Positions 7,761 through 39,866 of a stretch of 64,000 nt of DNA are shown piece by piece. The stretch spans positions 4,166 to 68,165 of the forward strand of contig JAJFIX010000023.1 of the NCBI GenBank assembly GCA_021774575.1, given 5' to 3'. Below the pieces are notes generated by a model. It did not search any database. It was not told where the DNA came from and worked only from the letters and a program-made list of their open reading frames with translations. Positions within the stretch are counted from its first letter, which is position 1; every line of letters starts with the position of its first letter. This DNA comes from Alphaproteobacteria bacterium (GTDB lineage Bacteria > Pseudomonadota > Alphaproteobacteria > UBA6615). Made by a program: the position numbers and the translations under genes.

Positions 7761-7891
7761 TTTCCCTGGGCTCGACTGCATCTTCATGTTTTGCCTTCGT
7801 AAGGCTCTTGGCGTATAAAATTTCACCATGTTCTGCAAACGATTGCACGAACATTCGTTCATGAGAGTTTTAAGCATTGAAGGGTGATCTA

Positions 7892-8827
7892 ATGGCCGAG
7901 ATAGATTTGAAAAAATATTCCATTGGCTGGATTGGTGCCGGACGTATGGGATATCCGATGGCCGAACGGTTAATCAAGGCTGGCTGTGATGTTACAGTCT
8001 ATAACCGGACCAAGGCCAAAGCAGAGCCCCTGGCCGCCCTGGGAGCCAAGCTCGCCGATAGTCCGGCCGATCTTGCGGATCGTGATATTGTCTTTACCAT
8101 GGTCTCCGGCCCAGCCGATTTGCTGCAGGTGACTGGCGGGGAGCAAGGTGTCTTGTCGGTTTCGGGAACAGTGCCGAAAATGCTCATCGATTGTTCGTCG
8201 GTATCTGAGGAAGCTTCGGCCGAAGTGCGTGCGGCGGCGGCAAAACTTGGAGTGGCGATGCTGGCCGCGCCGGTCAGCGGCAATGGCAAAGTCGTCAAAG
8301 CCGGCAAACTTTCCATCGTTGCATCGGGGCCGCAAGAGAGTTTCGAAATCGCTGAGCCCTATCTTGATGTGATTGGGGTCGGGGTCTCTTATGTCGGCGA
8401 CGGCGAACTCGCGCGGATGGTCAAGATTTGCCACAATGTCCTGCTTGGGGTGGTTATCCAGAATTTGGCGGAAATAACCGTATTGGCGGAAAAAGGCGGC
8501 GTTCCGCGCCATGCCTTCCTCGATTTTATCAATAAGAGTGTGATGGGATCGATGTTTACCAAATATAAGACACCGGGCATGGTTAATCTCGATTACGCGC
8601 CGACCTTCACCCCGCCGCTTCTACGCAAGGATTTAGAGCTCGGGCTGGCAGCAGCCAAGCGGCTTGGAGTGCCGATGCCGGTAACCGTGACCACGTCAGA
8701 GATTGTCCAAGCGGCCATCGGCCTCGGGCATAGCGAAAAGGATTTCTCCATACTGCTCGATATGCAAGCCAAGGCGTCGGGGATGGAGCTGAAATCCGAA
8801 GAGATGGAGGTCGATACCGGCCTCTAA
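7892..8827 (+). CDS. NAD-binding 3-hydroxyisobutyrate / 2-hydroxy-3-oxopropionate dehydrogenase-family oxidoreductase
   Basis: N-terminal Rossmann motif 'IGWIGAGRMG' and a HIBADH-type C-domain. Confidence 0.75.
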   Translation: MAEIDLKKYSIGWIGAGRMGYPMAERLIKAGCDVTVYNRTKAKAEPLAALGAKLADSPADLADRDIVFTMVSGPADLLQVTGGEQGVLSVSGTVPKMLIDCSSVSEEASAEVRAAAAKLGVAMLAAPVSGNGKVVKAGKLSIVASGPQESFEIAEPYLDVIGVGVSYVGDGELARMVKICHNVLLGVVIQNLAEITVLAEKGGVPRHAFLDFINKSVMGSMFTKYKTPGMVNLDYAPTFTPPLLRKDLELGLAAAKRLGVPMPVTVTTSEIVQAAIGLGHSEKDFSILLDMQAKASGMELKSEEMEVDTGL

Positions 8828-8848: not shown

Positions 8849-9484
8849 CTAGTTAACAGTGGGCGTAATTTGCGCGATTAAATCCTCGATAGAGCCGCCG
8901 TTTCGGCGCAAAATCGTTGCAAATTCCGTCTTCTGGGACTGCAGAAAACTCTTATTATTGATCGCTAAATCCAGCACCTTCGGCTGGCCTTCAATAACGT
9001 CGATAGTCCAGATAATAGGCGACGAAAAATGATCGGTCACCAGGACCGTGTTGACTTCAAATCTCCGGTTCTCGGATTCAGGACTATCGATTTCATTTGT
9101 GGCAAATATCTCGAAATGCCCGGTTGTTGGGAGGTTATCAACAACTGTGCTCGCCACAAATTCGGTCAAGGCGACAATGAAATGTTCTTTTTCCTCGTCG
9201 CTTGCAGTGATCCAGTGGCGGCCGAGGGTCAGCCGGGCAATCGCTTCCGTGGCGAAGGACGTGGTAAATGTGTCGCGCATCGCGGCGCGGCGCTCCAGGG
9301 GCTCAAGGGACGCATCCGTCAGCGCTGTAACGCCCTGCGCAGTCAAAACCTGGATAAATTGAGGGGCAACTAGGCTATTTGAGCTGCCAGCCCCGTCGGG
9401 CATTGCTGTAACCGGCTGACTGATGGTGAGAAGCATCAACGCCCAGGCGGCGCACGCAATAAAATGCCTTGCGCCTGCGGTCAT
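8849..9484 (-). CDS. MlaC/Ttg2D-family periplasmic lipid-binding protein (paralogue 1)
   Basis: Signal peptide. Aligns by eye to E. coli MlaC ('LTLGRHWITASDEEKEHFIVALTEFV' ~ '[26 protein letters not shown]'). Confidence 0.7.
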   Translation of the reverse strand: MTAGARHFIACAAWALMLLTISQPVTAMPDGAGSSNSLVAPQFIQVLTAQGVTALTDASLEPLERRAAMRDTFTTSFATEAIARLTLGRHWITASDEEKEHFIVALTEFVASTVVDNLPTTGHFEIFATNEIDSPESENRRFEVNTVLVTDHFSSPIIWTIDVIEGQPKVLDLAINNKSFLQSQKTEFATILRRNGGSIEDLIAQITPTVN

Positions 9485-9778
9485 TATTTTACCACTTAGA
9501 GGTGAGTTGCCGTCATTGGTTTGTTTGTTCATCAGGCGGGTCACTTCGAATTTGTTATTATCACTGAGGTGACGAACTGATATTGGGTATCTGAAATAAC
9601 AGAATACCCAGCAAGGGCTGATCGATGGCAGCCAGCGAGAGCCGCCTCGGCACCAGGGGACATTACCCCATAATTTAGTTGCTGAGAAAGCGCAAATTAG
9701 GGAAAATCGTTGCTATTAGGTCACAAATGGACCTGAAGTGCTGTGGATAGATGTGCTCTGGTTTTCGGGAGGCGGCGG

Positions 9779-10576
9779 TTATCCTGCGATTTCATCGATT
9801 AAGGCCGGGATTGATCCTCCCACTTGCCGTAAGATTTCGGCAAATTCCGCGCGTTGGGTCAGCAGGAAACTGCGCCCAGCAAAGGTTGCATCAAGTATGC
9901 GCAATTTGCCGTCGGTGGTAACCACGGACCACAAGACCTCGCCCTGGACGTCTGCGGATGAAAACAAGGACCTTACTTCAATGAGCGTGTCGGTCCGCTC
10001 CACCGCATCGACCTGACGTGCCGAAACAACCTCGATTCGGCCGTTCGGCGGAAATCCCTCAATGAGTTGCTTGGCCAGAAAACCGCCCAGGATTGCTCTA
10101 AATTGATCGCGTTCTCCCTCGTCGGCCTTGTTCCAGGCGCGGCCGAGGACGATCCGACTAATTTCCTGGGTAGCGAACTTTTGGTCGAAGAGATCACTGA
10201 AAAATTGACGCAATAGAGCCGGGCTGTTGGTTTGGTCGTTAAGCGCCGTAATGCTCGTCTGGGCGAGGTCGTTGATAAATTCTGGGGCTAGAGCAATAGA
10301 ATCCTGGCCATTCTGCGCCAATTGCAAAGGGGTGGCGGAGTTGATGGATCGCATATGTTCGGGCGACGATGGTGGGCCGGCCGCTAAGGGGGGCGTTACC
10401 AATGCTGCAGTTATTGCGATTAAAATACCTGCTCCGGCCGCAGTCCTCACAGAACTTGCGAGCAGGGATACGAAATATTTAGCCAACAGATTATTAGGAT
10501 ATTTCACTGAGCACCTATTCGTTAATGTTTTCGATTTTGCCGAAACGGCGAAAATTTGGAATTTAAAAATATTCAT
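9779..10576 (-). CDS. MlaC/Ttg2D-family periplasmic lipid-binding protein (paralogue 2)
   Basis: Same domain signature ('IVLGRAWNKADEGERDQFRAILGGFL'). An alternative GTG start at 10450 gives a cleaner signal peptide. Confidence 0.65.
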   Translation of the reverse strand: MNIFKFQIFAVSAKSKTLTNRCSVKYPNNLLAKYFVSLLASSVRTAAGAGILIAITAALVTPPLAAGPPSSPEHMRSINSATPLQLAQNGQDSIALAPEFINDLAQTSITALNDQTNSPALLRQFFSDLFDQKFATQEISRIVLGRAWNKADEGERDQFRAILGGFLAKQLIEGFPPNGRIEVVSARQVDAVERTDTLIEVRSLFSSADVQGEVLWSVVTTDGKLRILDATFAGRSFLLTQRAEFAEILRQVGGSIPALIDEIAG

Positions 10577-10606
10577 GCTGGCGCGAATGGCGCAGCTGTT
10601 TTGCGG

Positions 10607-11341
10607 CTAACGCCCCAATGTTTCAATGAGTCCATCCAAAGATCCTCCATTGCGTTGGAGAATGCGGTCAAAATCTCCCTTTTGCCCGAGAAGAAAGCTC
10701 GTCCGGGCAAAGGTAATATCAAGTATTTTCATTTCACCATCGACCGTTGCCACGATCCATGGAACTCTGGCGGAAAAATTTTGGCCGACAAAAACGGTCA
10801 CTACTTCGGTCTGCGGTAAGCCGAGCTCCGATTGTCCGGCCAGGGAGGCGCCGCGTACCTGAAAGCGACCATCGGGCACCCGGTCAATGATGACGTCGGC
10901 CAAGTGGATCGCCAGCACATCAAGAAAGGCGTCGCGCTGCTCTATCGATGCCGTTGACCAGATGCGACCGAGGACCGCCTGGCCGATTTGCTCCGACGCA
11001 AAAGCCGAGGAAAAAATTTGGCGAAATATCTCATGGGCCAATTGCCGACTTGTCTGGGCTTGGGTCAACGCGGCAAGACCCGCATCGATCACGGTGTCGA
11101 CGAAAATTGACGCGACATTGGTCGGGTCATCTGGCGCCTGAAAAATCCAGCGCGGCCCAATCGGTGTCGCGTTTTGGTTCGCAATTGGGCGAGCGGTCTC
11201 GGCAAAGCCAATGCTTGAAGTGAAAATTGCCACAGCTAGGCAAAATGCCAAACTCGCACCCGCTGTCGCAACAGGGCCGAAGGACACGAGAATTGCCGCG
11301 CCTGCGCGCCTAATTGAGTTATGTATAAATACTGTATTCAC
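10607..11341 (-). CDS. MlaC/Ttg2D-family periplasmic lipid-binding protein (paralogue 3)
   Basis: Same domain signature ('AVLGRIWSTASIEQRDAFLDVLAIHL') with an N-terminal signal/anchor. Confidence 0.65.
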   Translation of the reverse strand: MNTVFIHNSIRRAGAAILVSFGPVATAGASLAFCLAVAIFTSSIGFAETARPIANQNATPIGPRWIFQAPDDPTNVASIFVDTVIDAGLAALTQAQTSRQLAHEIFRQIFSSAFASEQIGQAVLGRIWSTASIEQRDAFLDVLAIHLADVIIDRVPDGRFQVRGASLAGQSELGLPQTEVVTVFVGQNFSARVPWIVATVDGEMKILDITFARTSFLLGQKGDFDRILQRNGGSLDGLIETLGR

Positions 11342-11671: not shown

Positions 11672-11685
11672 TTGACCTGGATCAA
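11672..11685. promoter_or_regulatory. FNR/FixK-type box TTGAC-CTGG-ATCAA (one mismatch to TTGAT-N4-ATCAA)
   Basis: Palindrome read directly. Lies in the 500 bp AT-rich divergent intergenic region ~165 bp upstream of the beta-propeller gene. Confidence 0.45.
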
Positions 11686-11742
11686 GTTTTTCTTCCAAAA
11701 TTCCAATAAAGACCATGATTAGGCGGAATAAACGGTAAAATG

Positions 11743-11756
11743 TTGATGCATGTCAA
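11743..11756. promoter_or_regulatory. FNR/FixK-type box TTGAT-GCAT-GTCAA (one mismatch)
   Basis: Second palindrome ~93 bp upstream of ATG 11843. An FNR-type regulator is encoded in the same cluster. Confidence 0.45.
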
Positions 11757-11842
11757 TGTTCCACCCGTATTCGGTCACTACTTTTCAATTATCAATATTG
11801 CCATTGTTCTCTGTTCGAGAGCGCTCCAAAAAGGAGATCCCA

Positions 11843-13240
11843 ATGACCCCTAAACTATCAAAACTTTTTCGACTCGTTATTGCCCCGGCGGCTCTGTCTG
11901 TTGCGCTCATGGTTCAGCCGGTGGCCGGATCGTTTGCGCAATCCGACGGCCCCGGCGATGGTTGGACAACGCCGCTTGCCGAGCAACTCGGTGTTCGATT
12001 GGTCCAACGGTTCGATTCCTCGGGTGAAGATGCCTGGGATCCGCTAGCCCATCCCAACGTCTTTATTACAACCGAGGGGCCCGGATATGGCGGCCTGTTA
12101 AGTGGTGTCACCCAGCCGGGTATCGCTATTATTGACTCCGATACCCGTGAAGTTGTGGCTCATCAGAGCTATGACGTTCTCGCCCTTGGCTGGGAAAATG
12201 TGTTCGAACCCCACGGGCTCGGCGTTTCTCCTGACGGGCAATGGATTTATCTGCCAAGTGGCGAGGGATCCTTTTCCTCGGTCGGCAAAGGTCGGTTGCT
12301 GGTCATTAACGCGCGCACACTGAAACTGGACAAAATTTTAGGACTGCGCGGTCAACCCCATCACGCCAAATCCTTCACGATGCCGGACGGAACGGGCCTT
12401 GCCTATGTTTATGGCTGGGGCCAACCGATGTTTGCGATGGACCCCAGTGATGATAATCGCGTTGTCGGGGGATTGGATTTCAATGCAATGGGTATCGAGG
12501 GATATCTATATTTTGCCTCCCCCGAGGGCGACGAGATCATTGCCAGTGGGCGTTTTCGACGCGGTGTAGCGAGAAATGAGTTACATGGCAATGTGATGGT
12601 TCGCATCGATACGTCTGACTGGAGCTTGATTGACTATGTTCCAGTTGCTGACAGCACCCCTGTCTGGGTCTCTTTTAGCGCAGACGGCGAGAATGCGTAT
12701 TTCAGCGGTGGTCACTCTAGCCTCGTATTCAAATACGACCGGATCGGGGACGAGGTGACGTCGCACGCACGCGCTGGCGTTGAAGGTCCGTACGGTGTGC
12801 ATTTAGGTTGGGATGACACCTTCCTTTATGCGGTTGGCAAGGGCGAAGGATCCCACAATCGCGGTAAAGTATTGGGGCTTATCAATACCGATCTGATGGA
12901 TAGGTCAACCCGGCCAATGGATCAGTTTACGACAAACTGCTTGCGTGGCGATCACGGCACGCTTCATCCTGATCCGGATGCGAATGAGTTGTGGATTACC
13001 TGCAATTCGAGCTTTGAAATTGTGGTTTTTGACCTCGACCGTAACGAAGTCTCAGCCAGAATTCCGATGCCGAACGGTGGTAGCACTCACTCCGGCTCTT
13101 TCCTTCAATATGCAGGCTGGAATGGCGAAGTCGTCGCCGACCAGAACGGGCTTCAAGGCAGCGCACTTACCCTGAAGCGCCAACTGCTCGGGTTGGAGGG
13201 TGCCGAAACGGTGCCCGCCGATGAGCTAGTGGGCGACTAA
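11843..13240 (+). CDS. secreted beta-propeller protein of unknown function (SBP56/MtoX-like or NosZ-propeller-like; unresolved)
   Basis: AAGGAG RBS 8 bp before ATG 11843 and a Sec-type signal peptide. Blade-like repeats ('AYFSGGHSSLVFKYD', 'ELWITCNSSFEIVVFD'), an HH pair, no Cys-rich site. Confidence 0.5.
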   Translation: MTPKLSKLFRLVIAPAALSVALMVQPVAGSFAQSDGPGDGWTTPLAEQLGVRLVQRFDSSGEDAWDPLAHPNVFITTEGPGYGGLLSGVTQPGIAIIDSDTREVVAHQSYDVLALGWENVFEPHGLGVSPDGQWIYLPSGEGSFSSVGKGRLLVINARTLKLDKILGLRGQPHHAKSFTMPDGTGLAYVYGWGQPMFAMDPSDDNRVVGGLDFNAMGIEGYLYFASPEGDEIIASGRFRRGVARNELHGNVMVRIDTSDWSLIDYVPVADSTPVWVSFSADGENAYFSGGHSSLVFKYDRIGDEVTSHARAGVEGPYGVHLGWDDTFLYAVGKGEGSHNRGKVLGLINTDLMDRSTRPMDQFTTNCLRGDHGTLHPDPDANELWITCNSSFEIVVFDLDRNEVSARIPMPNGGSTHSGSFLQYAGWNGEVVADQNGLQGSALTLKRQLLGLEGAETVPADELVGD

Positions 13241-13344
13241 CGGATCGGCGACGGTAGGAGATACCGTCACCAACACGTCAGAAGGGGGATAGCCCCGCTA
13301 TCCCCCGCCTCTTCAAACCACTGCCCAATTCAGAATTTAGCAAA

Positions 13345-14616
13345 ATGTTTGCGCGACGAATGACCAAGGAGATGGCTGTGCTGAACAAACTGAAATCGAA
13401 TGCCGGATTAGGTGTCATTGCCGGAGCGGCCATTTGCACCACTGCAATTTTCCTTGTTGTTTCAAGCAGCGCCCAATCCCAAGCGCCTGCGATCAGCGAC
13501 GCGTCGCCGCAAGTTGAAAACGGCCGGGACATATTTATGACAGCGGGGGGCGTTGGTTGTGCAGCCTGTCACGGAATTTTTGGTGAAGGCGATGTCGGCA
13601 TCGGCCCTTATGCGCGCGGTGTGAATAGGGCGTCGATCGACGCGGCGCTAGAATCCATTGCCGAAATGTCCTTCCTTCGAAGTTCGGTACGCGGCCAATC
13701 CATCGACGATATTGCTGCCTATACGGAGTGGCTCGGCAATCATCAACTGGTAAAGACCCTCGCCAAGCGCGGCCGTTTTATTCCCGACAGCGTATCCGTC
13801 CGTCCAAACACATTGATCCAGCTGGTTATATCTAATGCCAGCCGGTTTCCCCGCACCTTTGCCAGTGACGATATGGGTATCGGTGAGATTTCCGTGGATG
13901 GACGTGAGGTCGCAGAAATTATCTGGACGTCGCCTAGTGAGGAGGGAACTTTCACCCTACGTTGCTTGGATTGCCGGATTACCGATCAGCAACTTTCTAT
14001 CCAAATTTCGAATGACGCTGCGCCCTTCACCCCCGTTTCTGGGCCACCGGTTGAGGTGGCGAATACGCCTGCACCAGCCGTTCAGACAGCGGCGGATTTG
14101 GACTTGATCGACCGCGGTCGAGATATTTTTCTCAATGCCGGTGAGGTGGGGTGCACGGCCTGTCATGGCTCTTACGCCGAAGGCGATGTTGGAATTGGTC
14201 CTTATAATAGAGGCCTCGATGAAGACGATATTCGTCTGGCGTTGGCTAATGTCGATGCGATGCGTTTCCTGCAGCAACAACTAGACGATGAACAAATTCA
14301 TCAAGTCGCTGCCTATTACGGATGGCTGGGTGATCACCAGCTTTTCAAAACGCGCATGATCCGTGGGCAATTCTTTCCGAATAGAATTCGGGTGGCGCCG
14401 GGGGCGGCTATTCAGTTGGCGATTACCAATCGCGCTCGTTCCCCTGGTGCATTTTTTAGCGCCGACATGGGGATTGAACCCTTCGTTGTCCAAGGTTTGG
14501 AGACGGTCGATTTTTTCTGGACCGCGCCAAGGGTTGAAGCCGAATTCACCCTGCGCTGCGCCGATTGCGCGACATCAGATTGGCTGACCATCGAGACGAC
14601 GCAGGCTGCACGATAG
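13345..14616 (+). CDS. periplasmic di-heme c-type cytochrome with internally duplicated [cyt c + cupredoxin-like] modules
   Basis: Two CxxCH motifs ('CAACHG', 'CTACHG'), each followed by 'GEGDVGIGPY'. Two ~90 aa beta-sandwich-like modules sharing 'DMGI' and 'LRCxDC' but lacking His ligands. Start uncertain (13345, 13372 or 13378). Confidence 0.6.
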   Translation: MFARRMTKEMAVLNKLKSNAGLGVIAGAAICTTAIFLVVSSSAQSQAPAISDASPQVENGRDIFMTAGGVGCAACHGIFGEGDVGIGPYARGVNRASIDAALESIAEMSFLRSSVRGQSIDDIAAYTEWLGNHQLVKTLAKRGRFIPDSVSVRPNTLIQLVISNASRFPRTFASDDMGIGEISVDGREVAEIIWTSPSEEGTFTLRCLDCRITDQQLSIQISNDAAPFTPVSGPPVEVANTPAPAVQTAADLDLIDRGRDIFLNAGEVGCTACHGSYAEGDVGIGPYNRGLDEDDIRLALANVDAMRFLQQQLDDEQIHQVAAYYGWLGDHQLFKTRMIRGQFFPNRIRVAPGAAIQLAITNRARSPGAFFSADMGIEPFVVQGLETVDFFWTAPRVEAEFTLRCADCATSDWLTIETTQAAR

Positions 14617-14635
14617 GGCAGGAAAGGGAAAAGCT

Positions 14636-16063
14636 ATGACAAATTTGAATGTCGCCAACCGCCCGTCCTTCAAGCCCGTCCGAAGAACTTGGGCCGCTGT
14701 GGGCCGATCCTGGGGAGGGTCGCATCCCCGGCTGGTCGCAATTTTTTCCTTACTTGCCGCTCTCGTCGTCTCGTCTGCTTGGCTAGCATTTCCCTATATT
14801 CTTGAAGGCCGTGGGCTCATTGCCGATGTCGGCGACACGGTGCAGACCGAGCGCCGCGACCGCGCGACTACGGTCGGGCAGCTGCTCACCCGTTATGCCG
14901 ATGGGCTGGGCGGGGCGGAAATCGACATGCTCTACGCGACACCGCGTTTTTTCGAAATCGCGGGGCAAGCCTCAAGCTATGATCAATACCGGCCCGATCA
15001 ATACATTGTGTTTATGATTAATGAGACGACCCATATCGAGGACCTGCCGCAACAGTTGCCCGAGGCGACCTTGATCGTCGATGGAAAGACGTATCAACCG
15101 GTCGATATTGAAGGGCCCATTGATGTCGTTCACCATCGATCCTCAACGGTTCGTTTTGCCGCGATTGACGCCAATGGCCAGCCGATTATTCCTGCCGATA
15201 CAAGCGAAATTGAACTCAGCCTTGTCGGCGATTGGGGCGACGCCGGGATGCCACGTACCGCATCATGGGATTTGCCGATCGATTATGCCGAGACCTATGA
15301 CGCAGGAATTTGGACACCTGTGATGGTTTTTGCCCTTGCGGCGGGCTTGTTGTCGGCAGTTTTGACCCCGTGTTTGCTGCAATTGCTGGCGGTTTATTTT
15401 GTCACCCTTGTTGGAGTTTCGGCTGAGAGTGGTGGTGGTAGTGGCAGTGCTTCTGCCTCCGGCCCTGGGGGCCGAAAAATGTTATATGCAGCGCTGGCGT
15501 TTGTGGCCGGTTTTACAGTTCTCTACACGGTTGCGGGTGCCGCGATCGGCTATGCCGGCAAGGAAATGCAGATATTGTCTGCCGAATGGAGCCGTCACGT
15601 TGGCATTGCGTCGGGACTTTTGATCATTGCAATGGCAATTTGGTTCGGTATCAGGTCGCGGGCACCGATGGTCTGTAAAATCCCGTTGCCCGGCGCGGTT
15701 GCTCGGTTTGACAAACGCGGCGTCATCGGCTCGGCGCTCGTCGCCGCCGGTTTTTCGCTGGGCTGCATGACATGCTTTAGCGGTGCGATTGTCGCGACCC
15801 TCCTCGTCTATGTCGGTGCGTTGGGGAGTGCCTCAATCGGAGCACTGGTTCTCTTCCTGTTCTCGATCGGTGTTGGAATTCCGTTCTTGGCCGGAGCGCT
15901 GTTCCTGTCCCGAGCCACTCGGGCAATGGCATGGGTGTCGAAATTTTCGCCCCAGATCGGTTTCGTTTCGATGGTGCTGATGGCTGGGTTCGGCGTGCTC
16001 CTGATTACCGATAATTTTCACGAAGTGAGCAATCTCATTTACCCATGGCTCGGTTTGGGGTGA
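14636..16063 (+). CDS. DsbD/CcdA-family transmembrane thiol-disulfide electron transporter with a Cys-free periplasmic N-terminal domain
   Basis: TM1 'AAGLLSAVLTPCLLQLL' matches the CcdA 'LSPCxLP' motif. A later 'GCMTCFSG' carries the second Cys pair. The ~230 aa N-domain has no Cys. Confidence 0.6.
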   Translation: MTNLNVANRPSFKPVRRTWAAVGRSWGGSHPRLVAIFSLLAALVVSSAWLAFPYILEGRGLIADVGDTVQTERRDRATTVGQLLTRYADGLGGAEIDMLYATPRFFEIAGQASSYDQYRPDQYIVFMINETTHIEDLPQQLPEATLIVDGKTYQPVDIEGPIDVVHHRSSTVRFAAIDANGQPIIPADTSEIELSLVGDWGDAGMPRTASWDLPIDYAETYDAGIWTPVMVFALAAGLLSAVLTPCLLQLLAVYFVTLVGVSAESGGGSGSASASGPGGRKMLYAALAFVAGFTVLYTVAGAAIGYAGKEMQILSAEWSRHVGIASGLLIIAMAIWFGIRSRAPMVCKIPLPGAVARFDKRGVIGSALVAAGFSLGCMTCFSGAIVATLLVYVGALGSASIGALVLFLFSIGVGIPFLAGALFLSRATRAMAWVSKFSPQIGFVSMVLMAGFGVLLITDNFHEVSNLIYPWLGLG

Positions 16064-16102
16064 ACCGGAATGCTGGTTGATTGGTTCCAATTTGGAGGTA
16101 GG

Positions 16103-16447
16103 AAAATGAAAAAACTTTTGATCCATGCGGCTTTGGCATTCTTTGTCCTGACGCCGGTTGTCCTGGCGTCAGGGGCAGCAAATGCGGCCGAGCGCGATAT
16201 CACGTTGACTGTTCTCATGACTTGCCCGACGTCCGAACCACCGTTGGTCCGAAAAACGCTGCTTGACGTCAATGGCGTGAGCGAGGTCGCGGTATCCTAT
16301 TCAGACAAAAATGCATATGTGATTTTCGATGATGCGGTGACGAATGAAATGGAACTGATTGCCGCGATTAATGAGATTGGGCTGCGGACGTCACGTGATG
16401 AGGATGGGGGGGATATGGAAGCCATGGATGATATGAGCGAAATGTAA
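16103..16447 (+). CDS. small periplasmic HMA-like (ferredoxin-fold) protein with degenerate 'MTCPTS' site and Met-rich C-terminal tail
   Basis: Signal peptide. 'ITLTVLMTCPTSEPPL..VSEVAVSY..AYVIFDD' mirrors the HMA 'GMTCxxC' layout but with a single Cys. C-terminus 'MEAMDDMSEM' is an MxxMxxMxxM motif. Confidence 0.5.
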   Translation, partial: KMKKLLIHAALAFFVLTPVVLASGAANAAERDITLTVLMTCPTSEPPLVRKTLLDVNGVSEVAVSYSDKNAYVIFDDAVTNEMELIAAINEIGLRTSRDEDGGDMEAMDDMSEM

Positions 16448-16490
16448 AAATTGATCGCTCGGGCTTGAGCAAGAGACACGAGGGCAGAAA

Positions 16491-17660
16491 ATGACAAGTT
16501 TCAAATCAATGATGGTCTTAAGCGCCGGATTTCTCCTTTTGGGTACGGCGGTTGCATTCGCTGTGCGAGAACCAAATGTGTCGCTCGCCGTTAGTGATAT
16601 TGAAAAATATGTGTTCGTTCCCAGTTTGGGGTCGGCCGACATTACGGTGATTGACAGTCGGAATAATTCTGTTGTCGGGACGATTGATCTTGACGAAATC
16701 CCGGACCGGTTGGTCGTGTCTTCCGCCGTCGGCCAGCTTATTGTCAGCAATCTAGAAAGTCGCACCGTTACATTGATCGATATAGAGACCGGCGATGAGA
16801 CTGCCGAGATCGCCCTAGATATAACGCCGCAATCCCTGGTCATGAGCCCCGAGGGGTATCTGGTCGCTGTGAGCGATGTTGATGCCGGCGTCGTCGCCGT
16901 GATTTCGTTGCACCGTGGCGTTGAAGTTTCGAGGATAGACAATCTTTCGGCGCCCTCTGGGTTAACTTTCAGCGATGATGGGTCGTTACTTTATGTTCCA
17001 GATGGTGCGTCAAATTCGATCAAACTTATCGATATCGTCCAAGGTAGGGCGTTTGGGGAGTTACCACTATCTGCTGGCAACCCTGATGGAGTAGGCGACC
17101 CGGAAATGCTCAGCGCCGTCACCAGAAGTGCCAATGGTCGCTTTGGCTTTTGCGCCATCGGTCATGCCGAGGAGCTTGCCATATTTGATTTTGGAACCGA
17201 GCAACGGGTCAAGACGCTCAAATTGGGTAACCAGCCTTCGCGGCCTTTCGGCACCGCGGATGGGCGATATATTATGGTGGCAAACAACGGTGATCGCACC
17301 GTGTCGATTATTGATACGCAGACCTTTGATATTGCCGCAACGCTGCCCGGGGCCGCCGATGTTACAGCAATTAACACCGGTTGGTTTGAGACCGTGGCCT
17401 TCGTCATCAGCGAAAGTGAGGACAAAGCGATCATCCTCGACCTCATGGATTTACGTAAATCTGGTGAGATTGAATTACCGAGTTCTCCCGGTCCAGGTGT
17501 CGTGACTCCCGACGCAGCGACACTTTATGTTGCGCTTAGCGATACCGATAGCGTCGCGGTGATCGATACACGGTCACGCCGGGTGACGGCAATTATCGAT
17601 AATGTAGGAACCCAGCCGCGAGGCGCGACAATGGCGCGAACGAATAATTATTGCCATTAG
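16491..17660 (+). CDS. YVTN-family beta-propeller repeat protein (NirF / cytochrome-d1-domain-like, no heme c motif), periplasmic
   Basis: Signal peptide. Roughly 40-residue repeats ('LYVPDGASNSIKLIDI', 'YIMVANNGDRTVSIIDT', 'LYVALSDTDSVAVIDT'). Confidence 0.6.
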   Translation: MTSFKSMMVLSAGFLLLGTAVAFAVREPNVSLAVSDIEKYVFVPSLGSADITVIDSRNNSVVGTIDLDEIPDRLVVSSAVGQLIVSNLESRTVTLIDIETGDETAEIALDITPQSLVMSPEGYLVAVSDVDAGVVAVISLHRGVEVSRIDNLSAPSGLTFSDDGSLLYVPDGASNSIKLIDIVQGRAFGELPLSAGNPDGVGDPEMLSAVTRSANGRFGFCAIGHAEELAIFDFGTEQRVKTLKLGNQPSRPFGTADGRYIMVANNGDRTVSIIDTQTFDIAATLPGAADVTAINTGWFETVAFVISESEDKAIILDLMDLRKSGEIELPSSPGPGVVTPDAATLYVALSDTDSVAVIDTRSRRVTAIIDNVGTQPRGATMARTNNYCH

Positions 17661-17704
17661 GCCCGACACCCTAGGTCAGCAACAAACTCGGGAGGTTGTG
17701 CAAA

Positions 17705-18361
17705 ATGAAAGAAAATTTTCGCCTTGGAATATATGGCAGCCTGGGACTGCTGCTTTGCGCCGCTACCGTAGCCGCCCTGTTGCTGATTAATAATCGCTTG
17801 GCGCCTGAAATCTCGGATCCGCCGCTTGAAATTGATGCGGCAATTATCGACCCAGGGGGACCATTTGCACTGGTCGATCATCAAGGAAAATCGGTAACCG
17901 ACCGTGATTTTCTCGGTCGATATCTACTGGTTAATTTTGGTTATACATTCTGTCCCGACATTTGCCCCACGACGCTCGGCCAAATTACCGTCGCGATGGA
18001 CCTGCTCGGTGAGAATGCGAACAAGGTTCAACCCGTGTTTATCACCGTCGATCCGGAGCGGGACTCAATTGAAGTTTTGGCCCGCTATATGAATTTTTTT
18101 CACCCTCAATTGATCGGCTTGACCGGCTCATCCGACCAGATCGCCAATGTCGCCCGGGTCTATATGGTTCACTACGCCCAGGCCGAGAGGGTCGAAGAGG
18201 CAAGCTATTATTCGGTCGATCACAGTAGCTTCATATACCTCATGGGGCCGGAAGGAGAATTTAGGGACGTCATTGCTTATGGAACTCTACCGCAGGAAAT
18301 GGCGTCGCTCATTGAGCGCCATATTTCAAACGATAGCTCGGCGTCCGGGGACGGCCAGTAA
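17705..18361 (+). CDS. SCO1/SenC-family copper chaperone (thioredoxin-like)
   Basis: GGGAGG RBS then ATG 17705. N-terminal TM anchor, 'FGYTFCPDICP' CxxxC motif and a downstream conserved His ('VDHSSF'). Confidence 0.85.
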   Translation: MKENFRLGIYGSLGLLLCAATVAALLLINNRLAPEISDPPLEIDAAIIDPGGPFALVDHQGKSVTDRDFLGRYLLVNFGYTFCPDICPTTLGQITVAMDLLGENANKVQPVFITVDPERDSIEVLARYMNFFHPQLIGLTGSSDQIANVARVYMVHYAQAERVEEASYYSVDHSSFIYLMGPEGEFRDVIAYGTLPQEMASLIERHISNDSSASGDGQ

Positions 18362-18414: not shown

Positions 18415-19194
18415 ATGCCAATGAAAAAGCAAAAAGATCCACTTTGCGGCATGATACTTCATGCAGAGCGTGGCAAATGCGCTTCCTGCGAAGTTCGGGC
18501 ACTCTCAATCTGCGCGCCTCTGGATCGGTCCGCTCTGGAAGTGCTGGCTGACTTGTCGGAGGTGGTAAATTTTAGGAAGGGTGACAGTATCTGCGCCGAA
18601 GGCGATCCGGTGGATTATTTTTTTACCGTGCAGTCCGGGGCACTGAAGACGTGTCGGTTACAGTCGGGGCGCCGTGACCTTGTGACCGGCTTTTTGTTTG
18701 GCGGAGATTTCCTCGGCCTGGCATTCTTTGCCGGGCAAATTGAGGCGGATACTCATTACCCATATGCCGTCAGGGCCTTAAGCAAGGGCCGCCTGTGTCG
18801 GCTGCCAAGACAGGCATTTTCCAAATTCATTGCCGATTATCCGCTTATTGAGAAACAAATTTTGGCAAAAATTTCGTTGAAACTGGAGCAGGCGGAAAAT
18901 CATATCCTGTTGCTTGGCAGAAAGAATGCGCGAGAAAAAATCTCTTCTTTCATTTTGCAACTTGATGACGCGCAGAGATTTGCTCGTCAAAATCTGGAGA
19001 GTGATTTTCAAGGTGTCGATACCGTTGATTTTCCTTTGGCGCGCCATGATATTGCCGATTACCTGGGAATGACTCCCGAAACAGTCAGCCGTGCCTTAAC
19101 TCAGCTGAAGGAAGACGGCTTGATCCGGCAACTCAGCTCACGCTGTGTTGCGCTCGTCCAGCGACAAATGTTGGAAGAGATAGCCGCAGGGTAG
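18415..19194 (+). CDS. Crp/Fnr-family transcriptional regulator, FnrN-like (N-terminal Cys cluster)
   Basis: N-terminal 'C..CASCEVRALSIC' (C-x2-C-x7-C plus an upstream Cys). cNMP-like beta-roll and a C-terminal HTH 'ETVSRAL' with the E--SR FNR-specificity residues. Confidence 0.8.
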   Translation: MPMKKQKDPLCGMILHAERGKCASCEVRALSICAPLDRSALEVLADLSEVVNFRKGDSICAEGDPVDYFFTVQSGALKTCRLQSGRRDLVTGFLFGGDFLGLAFFAGQIEADTHYPYAVRALSKGRLCRLPRQAFSKFIADYPLIEKQILAKISLKLEQAENHILLLGRKNAREKISSFILQLDDAQRFARQNLESDFQGVDTVDFPLARHDIADYLGMTPETVSRALTQLKEDGLIRQLSSRCVALVQRQMLEEIAAG

Positions 19195-19275: not shown

Positions 19276-19641
19276 TTATTGAGTGGCTAGAAATTCAACA
19301 ATGTCGGCGGCGTCTTGGGCATCTCCGACGCCGGGAAAGGCCATGCTGGTGTCGGGTACGAGTACTTGAGCCTCGGCAATGTACAGCAATAGCGTCTCTT
19401 CATCCCAGGTGAGACCAGATCCTTTCATCGCGTCGGAATATTCGAAATCGGCGAGGTCGGCCGCGGGTCGTCCGATAACACCGGCCAGGCTCGGCCCGAT
19501 GATATTTTCGCCAGCCGTCAAAGAATGGCACGCAGCGCAGACCTGAAACAGGTCTTCACCCCGCGCGGCGTCTTGGGCCAGTATAGGCGTTCCGCTCGCC
19601 AGCACTATTGCGGTCGCCATTATTGATATTGTTGCTTTCAT
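19276..19641 (-). CDS. class I c-type cytochrome (c2/c550-like), periplasmic
   Basis: Signal peptide, single 'CAACHS' heme motif and a Met sixth-ligand region. 121 aa. Confidence 0.85.
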   Translation of the reverse strand: MKATISIMATAIVLASGTPILAQDAARGEDLFQVCAACHSLTAGENIIGPSLAGVIGRPAADLADFEYSDAMKGSGLTWDEETLLLYIAEAQVLVPDTSMAFPGVGDAQDAADIVEFLATQ

Positions 19642-20082: not shown

Positions 20083-20531
20083 GAGGTGGCGCCTATTTGC
20101 AACACCCAAATGAACTATTCCATATAATTCGGTCGAGCTATAGATTTGTTGGGCCCGTGAGTTGGTGCAACTACAAGACCGACTGAACTGTCCTAAGACC
20201 GTTGTGCAGTCTGAACTTTATGAAGGTTTTTCAATTCAATTTACGTCGCTGGAACGGCTCAAAAGTGGCCCAATTTGGGGGTCGGTTATCGAGCCGATTG
20301 CCTGTGGAAAAAACATGGTTTCATCCACAGGGCTGTGTACTGTTCTGAGTTGTGGCGAGACCGTGGCTTGGACATCGGGGGAATCAATGAATATCGAAAC
20401 ACTGCCTTCAGCGGCAGTGTGCTGCTCTTGGCAAGGTATAACCTGTCGGGGTTGCGCAAATGTGGGGGCGTGCTTTGGACGATAACCGTTTTCGATCGCG
20501 GTTATTTGGCCGGCCGTTTTCTTGCCGATTA

Positions 20532-23500
20532 ATGCAATACAGAAATGACGGGCCTTCGAGGTCATTTCTGCATTTGGCTGCAGTCGCGCTCTTTTCTGCG
20601 TCACTTTTGGGCTTTGGCGGAGATGCTGTTGCGCAGAGCGTGGATTGGGTGCTCAACCTCAACGACACCGGCTCCGATCCGACCGCCGCCGGTGGAACCA
20701 TCACCTACAATATCAACGTTTCCAATAACGGGGCCGACCCAGCACCAGTGACGACGATCGATCTCGACGTGCCCGCAGGGACAACGCTCGCGGCGACGAG
20801 CGGGACGATCACCGGGTGCGCACCGGTCCCGACTGCCGGGCCTGCCACCGTTACCTGTACGATTCCGGCATTGGCGGCGGGGGGGGCTGTCGATCTGTCA
20901 GCCGATGTCGTTCCGGTCGCTTCGGGAACTGTGACCATCGGCGCGCACGTGCCGACCACCGTGGGCGCAGTAACCGATTTCGATACGGCTAACAACGATC
21001 AAACTGAAAACACGACGATTACCGCAGGGGCGGATGTCGAATTGCTGATTTCCGGGCCAGCCACAGCGGCTTCGGGCAGCCAGATTAGTTACAGCTTTGA
21101 TGCAACCAATAACGGCCCCGATCCGGCGTCAAACCTGACCCTGAGTTTTCCTATACCGACGGGGGTTTCCAACATCACCGAACCGCCGGGCTGTTCCCTG
21201 TCTGCGAGCACCTATACTTGTGCGGTCTCAGGGCCTCTCGCGCCGGGTGCCAGTGTCTCGCTGGTTTTTGACGTTCAGATTTCCGCTGCCTCCGGGTCGA
21301 CGGTGACGCCGGTCGCAACTATCTCCGTCGGCTCGCCAGTTGATCCGCTGGCCAGCAACAACACCGACAGTCTCGACACAGATATCACAGCGGGAACCGA
21401 TCTTCGTATCACCAAATCGCGGAGCCCATCGGGCACGCTTCTGGTTGGCGATACCGTAACCTTCACCCTTGCTGGAAGCTACACCGGTGACGACCCCAGC
21501 GGGATCACAATAACCGACACCATCCCGGCAATCTACGCCATCCAATCGGTTACGCCGTCTGCCGGTAGCGGGTTTGCCTGCACCGTGACCTTGCAGGATA
21601 TTTCCTGCTTGCGGGCGACAGGTGCTGGTCCGGGGGGCAATGTTTCCTTGGGCTCTATCTCCATTGTGGCAACAGCCATAACGGCAGGATCGGCTGTTAA
21701 TACAGCGACCATCGTCGCGACAGGCCCTGTTGATTCAAACCTCTCAAACAATAGCGACACCGACGGCGGTGCGACAATCCAAGATCCAACTGTCGATCTG
21801 CGGGCGAACAAGTCCGGTCCAAATCCGCCGCTCATTGTTGACGGCAATAGTTATGATTTTTCGATCAGCGCTACCAATATCGGCAATGCAGATTTTTTCG
21901 GTACGATCGTTCTAACCGATAGTCTGCCGGCGGGGTTGACGGCGACCGGATTTGTCTTGAACGGATGGACTTGCGCGCCGGTTCCCGCAGCAGTGTTGCC
22001 CATTGCGGGCCCAGCGGTGATTGAATGCACGCAAATTTTTACCTCCGGAAGTCCACTCGCCTCCGGTGCGACGACTTCGAGTGCCGTTATACAGACGACG
22101 GCCACTGCGTCGGGAACCATCACCAACAGTGTCACGGTCTCTTCCCCCGATGCAAATATTGCAGACAGCAATTCTGGCAATGACGTTGCGACCACGACCG
22201 TTACCGGCAGCACACTCGGCGCCTCGGCCGATATTCTCGTCGAGAAGACGGCTAGCCTTGCCACACTGCCGGCAGGCGATGTGCAGACCTTTACCCTTCG
22301 TGTGGTCAATAACGGTCCCATCGCTTCAGCCAACATTACTCTCACCGACAGTCTGTCCGGATTGATCAACAATTCGGTGGGGCCGACCGGTGCTGGGTTG
22401 ATCAGCGTCGACGACACTTCGTCGGTAGGGTTGGCTACGGGGCTGACATGTTCCACCGCCTCGTCGGGGGGCAGCTCTCGCCTCTTGACCTGTACCATCG
22501 TGAATTTGCCGGTCTGTGTGGGCGCCGACTGCCCGATCATCACTGTGCAAGTTCGCCCCGGCGGCAATGGCGGTTCGCGGACCAACACAGCCGACGCTAT
22601 TTCTTCGGTCACCGTCGATTCCGATCTGACGAATAATTCGGCCAGCGCTACTTTCACAGTAGAGCCCCGCGCCGATATGACCGTGACCAAGGTCTCGTCG
22701 CCGTCTCCGGCTACCGCCGGGCAAGATCTGACCTATGTTCTCACCGCGCGAAATATCAGCAATGGTCTCAGTGCTGCAGCGAGTGTGACGATAACCGATA
22801 CGCTGCCGAACAATGTAACTTTTGTCTCCGCATCGCCCTCGGCTGGGAGCTGCACGACCACGCCGATACTCAATTCGACGACCGGTGCTGGCAACAATAC
22901 GGTGAGCTGTTCTCTTGGCACGATCAATAACGGCGCCCAGCGGACGGTGACGATTGTCACGCGGCCGAACTTCGTGACCCGCGGCACCACTCTTTCCAAC
23001 AATGTGACCGTTGCCACGACGACGATCGAGACCGATGGCACCAACAATTCGGCGATCAATCTGACCCCGGTTGTGGTTCCTGTGCTCGACCTTCTGGTAA
23101 ACAAGACCGATAGCGTCGACCCTGTCGCGGTTGGGGATGACACGGTCTTTTCTATTTCGGTGCAGAATATTGGCCCATCGGCGGCTGAAAACGTCGTTTT
23201 TACCGATGTTATGCCGCCGTCTCGGCTGAGCTTCCAATCTGTCATCGTCTCAGCGGGGGGGAGCTGCCTAACGGTTCCTGCGGTCGACAGCTTCGGGCAA
23301 ACCCTTGAATGCGACTTTCCGCGGCTTCTTGCGGGCACCTCGGAGACAATAACGGTCACCATGCGGGGCACCGAAAAGGGTACAGTATTCAACACAGCCG
23401 ATGTGACGTCCGATGAGGTTGTCGCCGGATTTGATACCAACACCACCAACAATAATGTAATGGAGCAGACGACGGTCCGTTCCAAGGCAGACCCCGAAGT

Positions 23501-30982: not shown

Positions 30983-31043
30983 TACCTGACGGTGACAGGC
31001 CAAAGAGGCCAATGTTGCTGTTTTACCGATGGAGAAATCAAAA

Positions 31044-32317: not shown

Positions 32318-32342
32318 TCTGTCGACGAATTGATTGGACGGT

Positions 32343-32383
32343 CGGAGCGCTAAGTCACTGGCGCTCCGGCCTCTGGTTTTTCC
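32343..32383 (+). terminator. intra-operon rho-independent terminator/attenuator between urtA and urtB
   Basis: Stem 'cggagcgc' / 'gcgctccg' (8 bp), loop ~10 nt, followed by 'ggtttttcc'. Confidence 0.55.
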
Positions 32384-32405
32384 AAAACCATCATGAGAAC
32401 ACCGG

Positions 32406-34034: not shown

Positions 34035-34037
34035 GGG

Positions 34038-35896: not shown

Positions 35897-35899
35897 ATC

Positions 35900-36595: not shown

Positions 36596-36597
36596 GC

Positions 36598-37479: not shown

Positions 37480-37501
37480 TCGCCGATATAGAAAAGAGAG
37501 G

Positions 37502-37813: not shown

Positions 37814-37826
37814 GTGAGGTGAGCCA

Positions 37827-39855: not shown

Positions 39856-39866
39856 TTGATGGATTT

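What the first reader, a model, noticed from the sequence alone, without database searches (positions are those of the whole stretch)
14636..16447. CcdA/DsbD-type membrane reductase with Cys-free N-domain plus degenerate HMA protein carrying a Met-rich Cu(I)-type tail
DsbD-family proteins normally deliver electrons to a Cys-containing periplasmic partner domain. Here the 230 aa periplasmic N-domain has no Cys at all. The next gene encodes an HMA-fold protein that has lost the second Cys of MTCxxC and gained a C-terminal MEAMDDMSEM (MxxMxxMxxM) motif. That motif is classic for periplasmic Cu(I) binding (CopC, PcoC, CusF-like). This looks like a reductant-and-copper delivery pair dedicated to the neighbouring enzymes rather than generic cytochrome c maturation.
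Basis: partly seen in the sequence, partly recalled or inferred. Interest (0 to 1): 0.55.

Follow-up and report, generated by a model that had tools for sequence, protein, structure and literature searches.

The report
Copper-handling CcdA variant with helper proteins
A membrane protein related to the CcdA/DsbD electron shuttles carries an undescribed histidine-bearing outer domain and always sits beside an uncharacterised histidine-rich propeller enzyme and copper chaperones, so it is probably a dedicated assembly factor for a new metal enzyme and not a general cytochrome-maturation protein.

Summary
Both genes are real and as described. The 475-aa protein has an N-terminal membrane anchor, a Cys-free periplasmic domain and a CcdA/DsbD core. 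The next gene encodes a secreted HMA-fold protein. Its true start is 16106, giving 113 aa, with MTCPTS in place of MTCxxC and the tail MEAMDDMSEM.

The N-domain is not inert. E130, H133, H166, H167, R168 and W211 are invariant in 81 sequences, as are C246, C347, C377, C380 and H462 in the membrane core. The domain matches no Pfam, NCBIfam or PDB family. Relatives occur alone or fused to His-rich cupredoxins, beside Cupredoxin_1, YHS and DsbD_TM genes.

In 80 loci from species-representative genomes, all of them MAGs, the protein travels with three partners:
- a YncE-like propeller ending in invariant NNxCH (71 loci);
- SCO1 (63 loci);
- an unannotated propeller with five invariant His (57 loci).

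The HMA gene is found in only three closely related loci. Its single Cys is conserved 3/3 and the Met-rich tail 2/3. It is a lineage-specific accessory, not the core partner.

My best reading is a dedicated copper-centre assembly module. Whether the core moves electrons or Cu(I) is unresolved, and copper itself is inferred.

The parts
11672..11756 (+). Two FNR-box-like sites (11672-11685 TTGACCTGGATCAA; 11743-11756 TTGATGCATGTCAA) in the promoter region of the operon
   Evidence: only 4 such sites (1 mismatch or fewer) in 64 kb, and 2 of them lie here. An FnrL-like regulator closes the operon.
11843..13240 (+). Client enzyme: Sec-exported His-rich beta-propeller (465 aa from M32 of ORF 11750-13240), with no known family
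   Evidence: No Pfam, NCBIfam or PDB sequence match. The AF2 model is a propeller with pLDDT 87.9 and finds only generic propeller folds. H124, H173, H174, H371 and H416 are 97-100% conserved (at most one gapped row) in 58 sequences at 24-79% identity.
13345..14616 (+). Internal duplication of [cytochrome c CxxCH + cupredoxin-like domain ending in C-x-[DN]-C]
   Evidence: In some homologues it is fused to the propeller.
14636..14809 (+). CcdA-like protein, residues 1-58: basic cytoplasmic N-terminus plus TM anchor (helix 31-58)
   Evidence: AF2 model. Six Arg/Lys lie in residues 1-32 (sequence).
14810..15310 (+). CcdA-like protein, residues 59-225: periplasmic helix plus beta-sandwich domain, Cys-free, with invariant E130, H133, H166, H167, R168 and W211
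   Evidence: (pLDDT about 95). No Pfam, NCBIfam or PDB match. Foldseek finds only weak Ig-like hits.
15311..16063 (+). CcdA-like protein, residues 226-475: CcdA/DsbD-type membrane core with invariant C246 (TM1), C347 (cytoplasmic loop), C377 and C380 (TM4, GCxTCF) and H462 (periplasmic end, DNFH)
   Evidence: The family profile matches Thermus CcdA 5VKV at E 1.6e-5, with C246 and C380 aligned to the two redox Cys.
16106..16447 (+). Secreted HMA-fold protein (113 aa): single Cys (TGC 16223-16225) in MTCPTSEPP, and Met/Asp-rich tail MEAMDDMSEM (16415-16444)
16491..17660 (+). YncE-like beta-propeller with a signal peptide and an invariant C-terminal N-N-x-C-H
   Evidence: (71 of 80 loci)
17696..18361 (+). 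Membrane-anchored SCO1/SenC copper chaperone (C86xxxC90-P, H176)
   Evidence: E 3.9e-50; 63 of 80 loci
18415..19194 (+). Crp/FNR-family (FnrL-like) regulator with an N-terminal Cys cluster
19276..19641 (-). Class I cytochrome c (c550-like), convergent with the operon; membership uncertain

Best explanation
Genes 11843-18361 form one oxygen-regulated operon. It encodes an uncharacterised periplasmic His-rich propeller oxidoreductase, its cytochrome c/cupredoxin-like electron partner, and a dedicated metal-centre (most likely copper) assembly line.

The 475-aa protein is the membrane hub of that line.
- Its CcdA-type core keeps the two canonical membrane Cys (C246, C380). It draws reducing power from the cytoplasm.
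- Its membrane-tethered periplasmic domain offers a His-based metal site (E130, H133, H166, H167, possibly with H462).
- Together they would keep the Cys ligands of the periplasmic chaperones reduced and/or reduce His-bound Cu(II) to Cu(I) and hand it on. The chaperone ligands are the SCO1 CxxxC, the C-terminal Cys-His of the YncE-like propeller and, in this clade, the single Cys of the HMA protein.

The HMA protein, with one Cys and a Met/Asp tail, is a lineage-specific extra periplasmic Cu(I) shuttle. It is not a core component.

Shown: homology, invariant residues, topology logic, synteny and domain fusions.
Inferred: copper as the metal, the direction of flow, and the identity of the direct thiol partner.
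For: Homology to CcdA:
- Pfam DsbD_TM is above threshold.
- The family profile hits Thermus CcdA at E 1.6e-5, with C246 and C380 on the two redox Cys.
- SCO1 is thioredoxin-like, and its CX3CP pair must be reduced before Cu binds. TlpA does this in Bradyrhizobium (PMC6669012).
- No TlpA-like gene was identified among the eight operon genes scanned.

Dedicated module:
- In 80 loci, CcdA-like is present in 80, YncE-like in 71, SCO1 in 63 and the His-propeller in 57, in two fixed gene orders.
- No other conserved neighbour exists.
- A distant fused relative again sits next to a propeller that is 37% identical.

Copper link:
- Relatives of the N-domain are fused to CopI-like His-rich cupredoxins.
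- Standalone relatives sit beside Cupredoxin_1, YHS and DsbD_TM genes and a TRASH-domain regulator.
- SCO1 keeps its Cu ligands.

Invariant residues: E130, H133, H166, H167, R168, W211, C246, C347, C377, C380 and H462 in 81 of 81 sequences. H133, H166 and H167 are kept in standalone homologues at about 30% identity.

HMA protein: the CPxS motif is conserved 3/3 and the Met tail 2/3.

Regulation: two FNR-like boxes lie upstream.
Against: - No metal binding or redox activity was measured.
- Two invariant Cys (C347 cytoplasmic, C377 making CxxC in TM4) are not needed for classical CcdA electron transfer.
- The Pro residues of the CcdA PCxxP motifs are replaced (invariant Q249; T-C in TM4). The core may therefore do something other than thiol-disulfide exchange.
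- The propeller matches no known copper enzyme, so its metal is a guess.
- Every client enzyme carries a cytochrome c domain, which leaves room for a haem-related role.
- The HMA orthologue set has only three sequences.
Confidence: 0.5

Rival explanations
1. The membrane core is a Cu(I) conduit, not an electron shuttle. A thiolate/imidazole ladder would carry Cu(I) across the membrane: C347 in the cytoplasmic loop, then C246/C377/C380 mid-membrane, then H462 at the periplasmic end, then the 3-His domain. The direction could be export to the chaperones, or MerP/MerT-like import from the periplasmic HMA protein.
For: - All four Cys and H462 are invariant in 81 sequences.
- C377 creates a CxxC in TM4, and C347 lies in an Arg/Lys-rich, hence cytoplasmic, loop (sequence; model).
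- The PCxxP prolines typical of redox CcdA are lost.
- There is weak similarity to the Ni/Co efflux protein RcnA, and relatives weakly match the PpoB2 membrane copper chaperone.
- A MerP-like periplasmic HMA partner is present in this clade.
Against: - The two canonical redox Cys are retained exactly in register with CcdA.
- No member of PF02683 was found here to transport metal.
- The RcnA and PpoB2 hits are below threshold.
- The HMA partner is absent from 79 of 80 representative loci.
Confidence: 0.22
2. It is a private disulfide reductase with no direct metal role. It would keep the apocytochrome CxxCH motifs, and/or the conserved C-x-[DN]-C of the cupredoxin-like domains, reduced for this operon's haem proteins. 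The N-domain would be only a docking platform.
For: - Every client carries a cytochrome c domain, either as a separate cyt c/cupredoxin-like protein or fused to the propeller.
- The cupredoxin-like domains have a conserved CxxC and no conserved His.
- The classical role of CcdA is cytochrome c maturation (PMC3322552).
Against: - Standalone and fused relatives of the N-domain lie in copper contexts (cupredoxin, YHS) where no cytochrome c domain was recorded among the called neighbours.
- SCO1 and the Cys-His-tailed propeller are the conserved neighbours.
- The second gene order has no cupredoxin-like protein.
- The invariant E/H/H/H/R set in the N-domain and the two extra Cys are unexplained.
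Confidence: 0.13
3. It is a sulfur (persulfide) relay for building a sulfide-bridged copper cluster of the CuZ type in the propeller. The Cys ladder and the single-Cys HMA protein would carry sulfane sulfur and not copper or electrons.
For: - The propeller has a five- to six-His constellation including an adjacent HH pair. This recalls the His-ligated CuZ site of nitrous oxide reductase (my own knowledge).
- Single-Cys carriers with a C-P motif are typical of sulfur relay proteins such as TusA (my own knowledge).
- The operon looks FNR-controlled.
Against: - No sequence or specific fold match to NosZ was found. NosZ is only rank 41 among generic propellers.
- The HMA protein scores as MerP/CopZ-like, not TusA-like.
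- No rhodanese or cysteine desulfurase is conserved nearby.
Confidence: 0.07
4. The HMA gene is a decaying MerP/CopZ remnant with no function, and the Met-rich tail is a chance composition.
For: - It is below the Pfam HMA threshold.
- It has lost the second metal-binding Cys.
- It has no homologues beyond two loci.
- One orthologue lacks the tail.
Against: - Three orthologues at 43-49% identity keep an intact signal peptide and the full fold.
- They keep an identical M-x-C-P-x-S-x-P-P motif.
- Two have independent-looking Met/Asp tails.
- A strong Shine-Dalgarno sequence and tight operon spacing are present.
Confidence: 0.08

Closest known systems
CcdA (e.g. Thermus thermophilus CcdA, PDB 5VKV; Rhodobacter and Bacillus CcdA)
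   Same: The membrane core is homologous (Pfam PF02683 above threshold; profile E 1.6e-5). One Cys in TM1 and one in TM4 are in register with the redox pair.
   Different: - It has an extra N-terminal TM anchor and a roughly 165-aa periplasmic 3-His beta-sandwich domain.
- It has two more invariant Cys (C347, C377) and an invariant His (H462).
- The prolines following the Cys are replaced.
- Its genomic context is SCO1, propellers and cupredoxin, not ccs/res/ccm genes.
DsbD and ScsB (three-domain alpha-beta-gamma electron transporters)
   Same: A periplasmic beta-sandwich domain is placed N-terminal to the membrane core. A thioredoxin-fold partner is present in trans (SCO1). ScsB is also linked to copper physiology (PMC3322552).
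   Different: - The alpha-like domain has no Cys pair, and has invariant His instead.
- There is no fused gamma thioredoxin domain.
- The core is CcdA-length, not the 8-TM form.
- The domain is anchored by a TM helix and is not released by a signal peptide.
TlpA / ScoI / PcuC assembly line for CuA (Bradyrhizobium)
   Same: A membrane-anchored SCO1 with CX3CP plus His needs its thiols reduced before metalation, and works with a second soluble Cu(I) chaperone (PMC6669012).
   Different: - No TlpA or PCuAC gene is in the operon.
- Reducing power would come directly from a dedicated CcdA-like protein.
- The client is a His-rich propeller, not CoxB.
MerP / MerT, and CopZ/Atx1-type HMA chaperones
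   Same: The HMA gene encodes a secreted beta-alpha-beta-beta-alpha-beta HMA-fold protein next to a Cys-bearing membrane protein. Its best matches are MerP.
   Different: - The motif is C-P-x-S, with one thiol only.
- It has an added Met/Asp tail.
- The scores are below the family cutoffs.
- The membrane partner is not MerT.
Met-rich periplasmic Cu(I) sites (CopC/PcoC, CusF, CusB N-terminus, Ctr1 Mets motifs; my own knowledge)
   Same: MxxM-type spacing of thioether ligands in an oxidising compartment.
   Different: Here it is a short, acidic, probably disordered C-terminal tail on an HMA fold. It is present in 2 of 3 orthologues only.
Nitrous oxide reductase and its maturation genes (NosZ with NosDFYL/NosR/NosX; clade III lactonase-type NosZ, NCBIfam NF052460)
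   Same: A Sec-exported propeller with many invariant His sits beside a cupredoxin/cytochrome c electron partner and dedicated accessory genes, probably under FNR-type control.
   Different: - There is no sequence match to NosZ or L-NosZ models.
- No nosDFYL genes are present.
- The accessory set (CcdA-like, YncE-like, SCO1) is different.

Membership tests
DsbD/CcdA superfamily (Pfam PF02683 DsbD_TM) | Sequence match to the membrane-domain model above the curated threshold | tested here: met
   43.7 bits against a cutoff of 27.1, residues 229-444. The family profile matches CcdA 5VKV at E 1.6e-5.
DsbD/CcdA superfamily | Two conserved Cys, one in TM1 and one in TM4 | tested here: met
   C246 aligns to the SPC Cys and C380 to the TPC Cys of Thermus CcdA. 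Both are invariant in 81 sequences.
DsbD/CcdA superfamily | Pro residues flanking the redox Cys (PCxxP-type motifs) | tested here: not met
   TM1 reads T-P-C-L-L-Q with invariant Q249 where CcdA has Pro. TM4 reads G-C-x-T-C-F-G-G-A with no Pro.
DsbD/CcdA superfamily | Thioredoxin-dependent electron transfer to a periplasmic thiol protein | not testable with these tools
   This needs redox-state assays.
DsbD proper / ScsB | N-terminal periplasmic alpha domain with a redox-active Cys pair | tested here: not met
   There is no Cys in residues 1-245 in any of the 81 sequences.
DsbD proper / ScsB | C-terminal thioredoxin-like gamma domain | tested here: not met
   The protein ends 17 residues after the last TM helix.
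HMA domain (Pfam PF00403; MerP/CopZ) | Sequence match above the curated threshold | tested here: not met
   Pfam gives 21.3 bits against 24.8. NCBIfam MerP gives 41.9 against 92.55. The homology is still clear: PDB MerP 1osd at E 7.8e-6.
HMA domain (MerP/CopZ) | GMTCxxC metal-binding loop with two Cys | tested here: not met
   The loop is M-T-C-P-T-S. The second position is Ser in all three orthologues.
Met-rich periplasmic Cu(I) motif | Clustered MxxM/MxM repeats, conserved among orthologues | tested here: inconclusive
   Present here (MEAMDDMSEM) and in L006 (MGMDDSMDDM), absent in L005. Only three orthologues are known.
SCO1/SenC (neighbour, 17696-18361) | CxxxC-P plus a distal His on a thioredoxin fold | tested here: met
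   Pfam E 3.9e-50. C86, C90, P91 and H176 are conserved in 59 sequences.
Nitrous oxide reductase / thiocyanate dehydrogenase (for the client propeller) | Sequence or specific fold match to the copper propeller families | tested here: not met
   There is no NosZ, L-NosZ or TcDH hit by single sequence or profile. Foldseek gives generic propellers, with NosZ at rank 41.

The most novel reading that the evidence does not exclude
The operon defines a previously unrecognised respiratory-type periplasmic metalloenzyme: a propeller with a five- to six-His, probably polynuclear copper, site, fed by cytochrome c and cupredoxin-like partners. It would come with its own three-part assembly system:
- a fourth architectural class of the DsbD superfamily, in which the alpha-position domain uses His rather than Cys and the membrane core has a four-Cys ladder;
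- SCO1;
- a propeller chaperone with a C-terminal Cys-His.

The system is widespread in uncultured Woeseiaceae, Rariloculaceae, Porticoccaceae and Rhodospirillaceae and is induced at low oxygen. The enzyme could be a new reductase or dehydrogenase of the nitrogen or sulfur cycle.
Probability: 0.35. Interest if true: 0.85.

Novelty: new variant of a known kind. Interest (0 to 1): 0.62.

Why it matters
Known DsbD-superfamily proteins fall into three classes (DsbD, CcdA, ScsB). All of them hand electrons to Cys-containing partners. This family keeps the CcdA core but adds a conserved His-based periplasmic domain and two extra invariant Cys. It is locked to SCO1, a Cys-His-tailed propeller and an unannotated His-rich propeller enzyme.

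If confirmed, three things would follow:
- a new route by which reducing power and/or copper reaches a periplasmic metal centre;
- a function for hundreds of proteins now annotated as "cytochrome c biogenesis protein CcdA";
- a new enzyme family in bacterial families (Woeseiaceae and relatives) recovered so far only as metagenome-assembled genomes, whose substrate could then be sought.

Tried and rejected
Identity of the client propeller:
- I considered thiocyanate dehydrogenase, NosZ, clade III L-NosZ, methanethiol oxidase (SBP56) and cd1 NirS/NirN.
- No Pfam, NCBIfam or PDB sequence or profile match reached significance.
- Foldseek returned only generic propellers.

Fold of the N-domain:
- Foldseek against the PDB gave only weak Ig-like hits (best E 0.035; CopC at rank 38, E 0.2), which is not informative.
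- A profile search of PDB sequences found nothing.

More HMA orthologues:
- The 5.8-billion-protein search returned only the query.
- An HMM of the three orthologues found nothing new in the 80 loci.
- The metagenome scan returned only canonical CxxC MerP genes in merR-merT-merP operons.

Literature: searches for this gene combination found no description.

Considered and set aside:
- The N-domain as a haem chaperone of the CcmE type. Its relatives sit in cupredoxin/YHS contexts where no cytochrome c was recorded among the called neighbours.
- The N-domain as a degenerate DsbD-alpha. It has its own invariant motif and standalone homologues.
- A search for another conserved neighbour that would reveal the substrate. 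All-against-all clustering of the ORFs in the 80 loci found none present in more than 12 loci.
Full report
**Observation.**
The two ORFs are present as described. ORF 14636-16063 encodes 475 aa. Pfam DsbD_TM matches residues 229-444 above threshold at 43.7 bits, and DsbD_2 also matches. NCBIfam gives only sub-threshold DsbD-type hits.

The first Cys is C246, so everything upstream is Cys-free. The AlphaFold model was built on 85 homologues and has mean pLDDT 82.8, with about 95 in the N-domain. It shows:
- a TM helix at 31-58;
- a helix at 61-84;
- a beta-sandwich at 85-212;
- a CcdA-like helical core.

The basic N-terminus and the Arg/Lys-rich loops at 266-276, 341-362 and 425-431 put the N-domain and the C-terminal DNFH motif in the periplasm. 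They put C347 in the cytoplasm. This rests on the positive-inside rule read from the sequence, and is an inference.

The second ORF is best started at ATG 16106. A GGAGG lies 7 nt upstream, and the public gene call is also 113 aa. The protein has a signal peptide and an HMA fold. Its matches are PDB MerP 1osd at E 7.8e-6 and NCBIfam MerP at E 1e-10, both below curated cutoffs. It reads MTCPTS where MerP has MTCSAC, and it ends in MEAMDDMSEM.

**The CcdA-like protein is a large, tight family.**
More than 500 full-length homologues at about 50-60% identity exist in metagenomes and MAGs. They are annotated at most as "cytochrome c biogenesis protein CcdA". A scan of one genome per GTDB species found 112 loci. 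The 80 kept are all MAGs: Woeseiaceae, Rariloculaceae, Porticoccaceae, Rhodospirillaceae, Rhodobacteraceae, Vicinamibacterales and Deinococcus.

I aligned 81 sequences reaching down to 36% identity. Three things stand out:
- The N-domain never contains Cys.
- E130, H133, H166, H167, R168 and W211 are invariant in the N-domain.
- C246, C347, C377, C380 and H462 are invariant in the core.

The family profile matches Thermus CcdA (5VKV) at E 1.6e-5. C246 and C380 fall on the two redox Cys. C377 replaces a Trp, which creates a CxxC in TM4. The prolines that follow the Cys in CcdA are replaced.

**The N-domain is an undescribed domain tied to copper contexts.**
An exhaustive phmmer search of 1.84 billion representatives found 145 relatives. 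They fall into four groups:
- the same fusion to DsbD_TM;
- duplicated N-domains;
- fusions that add an N-terminal Cupredoxin_1 domain;
- many standalone, membrane-anchored proteins of 160-230 aa.

None match Pfam, NCBIfam or PDB sequences in the N-domain region. Standalone homologues at about 30% identity still keep H133, H166, H167 and W211. Foldseek places the domain only weakly among Ig-like sandwiches.

The contexts are telling:
- One standalone gene lies with a Cupredoxin_1 gene and a separate DsbD_TM gene that also has two Cys in TM4.
- Another lies with two Cupredoxin_1 and two YHS genes.
- A third lies near a TRASH-domain regulator.
- Fused relatives carry a His-rich, CopI-like cupredoxin in front of the N-domain and keep all four Cys and the final His.

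**Conserved module.**
I ran BLASTP with the window's proteins against all ORFs of the 80 loci. The CcdA-like gene is present in 80, a YncE-like propeller in 71, SCO1 in 63 and the propeller enzyme in 57.

Two gene orders occur:
- propeller, cyt c/cupredoxin-like, CcdA-like, YncE-like, SCO1. This is the order in the window.
- cyt c-fused propeller of about 580 aa, SCO1, CcdA-like, YncE-like.

All-against-all clustering finds no other neighbour in more than 12 loci. A distant fused relative again sits directly after a propeller that is 37% identical. It is followed by cupredoxins and a Rieske/cytochrome b/dihaem cytochrome c set.

The partner proteins have these features:
- **Propeller enzyme.** It has no family assignment. 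It folds as a generic propeller at pLDDT 87.9. H124, H173, H174, H371 and H416 are 97-100% conserved (at most one gapped row) across both subfamilies, and H338 is usually kept. It has a Sec-type signal peptide.
- **YncE-like protein.** It ends in an invariant N-N-x-C-H.
- **SCO1.** It keeps CxxxC-P and the distal His.
- **Cyt c/cupredoxin-like protein.** It keeps the haem CxxCH and a C-x-[DN]-C but no His in the cupredoxin-like half.

**The HMA gene is peripheral.**
Only the window and its two closest relatives carry it. These are L005, whose CcdA-like protein is 62% identical, and L006/L007, at 57%. There the gene lies after SCO1, not before the YncE-like gene.

An HMM built from the three sequences finds nothing else in the 80 loci. 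The 5.8-billion-protein search finds only the query. The metagenome scan finds only canonical MerP.

Within the three, M-x-C-P-x-S-x-P-P is identical. Two have Met/Asp-rich tails and one has none.

**Regulation.**
Gene spacings of 19-105 nt indicate one operon. It ends with an FnrL-like regulator. Two of the four FNR-box-like sites in the 64-kb window lie within 85 nt of each other in the gap upstream of the propeller gene. That suggests low-oxygen induction.

**Mechanism.**
[quoted passage not shown] SCO1 is thioredoxin-like, and its Cys pair must be reduced before it binds copper. TlpA does this job in Bradyrhizobium (PMC6669012).

The simplest reading is that this CcdA variant is the dedicated reductant source for the operon's thiol-bearing copper chaperones. 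Its His-bearing domain would then hold copper, perhaps for reduction to Cu(I), at the membrane surface.

The two additional invariant Cys, the invariant periplasmic His and the lost prolines keep a second mechanism open. In that reading, Cu(I) is conducted along a Cys/His ladder. I could not separate the two mechanisms with the tools available. The less likely alternatives are:
- a purely haem- or disulfide-directed role;
- a sulfur relay for a CuZ-like cluster;
- a non-functional HMA remnant.

**Comparison and novelty.**
The protein is a member of the DsbD/CcdA superfamily by homology. It fails the DsbD/ScsB criteria because it has no alpha-domain Cys pair and no gamma domain. It differs from CcdA by the extra domain and the extra residues.

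The HMA protein is a homologue of MerP/CopZ that fails the two-Cys criterion. I found no description of the N-domain, of this architecture or of the module in the family libraries or in the literature searched.

I rate it a new variant of a known kind. It is embedded in what may be a new enzyme system.

Noticed in passing
window 11672-11685 and 11743-11756: Two FNR-box-like palindromes (one mismatch each) lie upstream of the propeller gene. Only four such sites occur in the whole window. The ORF start at 11750 overlaps one of them, which supports 11843 as the true start.
   Followed up: partly
window 16491-17660: The YncE-like propeller ends in N-N-Y-C-H. N385, N386, C388 and H389 are at least 90% conserved in 63 homologues, so this may be a C-terminal metal-binding or redox tail.
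   Followed up: partly
window 13345-14616: This protein is an internal duplication of cytochrome c plus a cupredoxin-like domain. Each cupredoxin-like half ends in a conserved C-x-[DN]-C and has no conserved His ligands. Cupredoxins next to standalone N-domain genes read YCD[IV]CCGG at the same place (L089 2201-2656, L091 570-1046).
   Followed up: partly
L093 6414-17824: A distant relative fuses a CopI-like cupredoxin, the N-domain and the CcdA core. It sits between a propeller 37% identical to the window's and three cupredoxin genes. An FeS flavoprotein, cytochrome b, a Rieske protein and a dihaem cytochrome c follow, which suggests a respiratory module.
   Followed up: partly
window 7877-8827; L043 11508-12392; L049 9652-11799; L001, L002, L006: Several genes recur loosely near the module: a beta-hydroxyacid dehydrogenase (NAD_binding_2; 12 loci and the window), a PQQ quinohaemoprotein dehydrogenase (9 loci), GST, TauE, a metallo-beta-lactamase-fold protein and a TonB receptor. 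They may hint at the substrate, but none is consistent enough to use.
   Followed up: no
window 8849-11341 (- strand): Three tandem paralogous MlaC-domain proteins (231, 265 and 244 aa) lie divergent from the operon.
   Followed up: no
window 20460-30791: A single 3443-aa ORF rich in Thr, Gly, Ala and repeated motifs looks like a giant surface or adhesin-type protein. I did not analyse it.
   Followed up: no
window 30992-41704: A binding-protein-dependent ABC transporter (Peripla_BP_5/6 binding protein, two BPD_transp_2 permeases) is followed by urease genes. ORF 39867-41072 carries UreE_N, UreE_C and UreF domains in one frame, so it is either a UreE-UreF fusion or an over-extended ORF.
   Followed up: no
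window 46300-48510: A 736-aa protein combines a PepSY-associated TM region with flavodoxin and NAD-binding domains, the layout of a membrane-bound flavin reductase.
   Followed up: no
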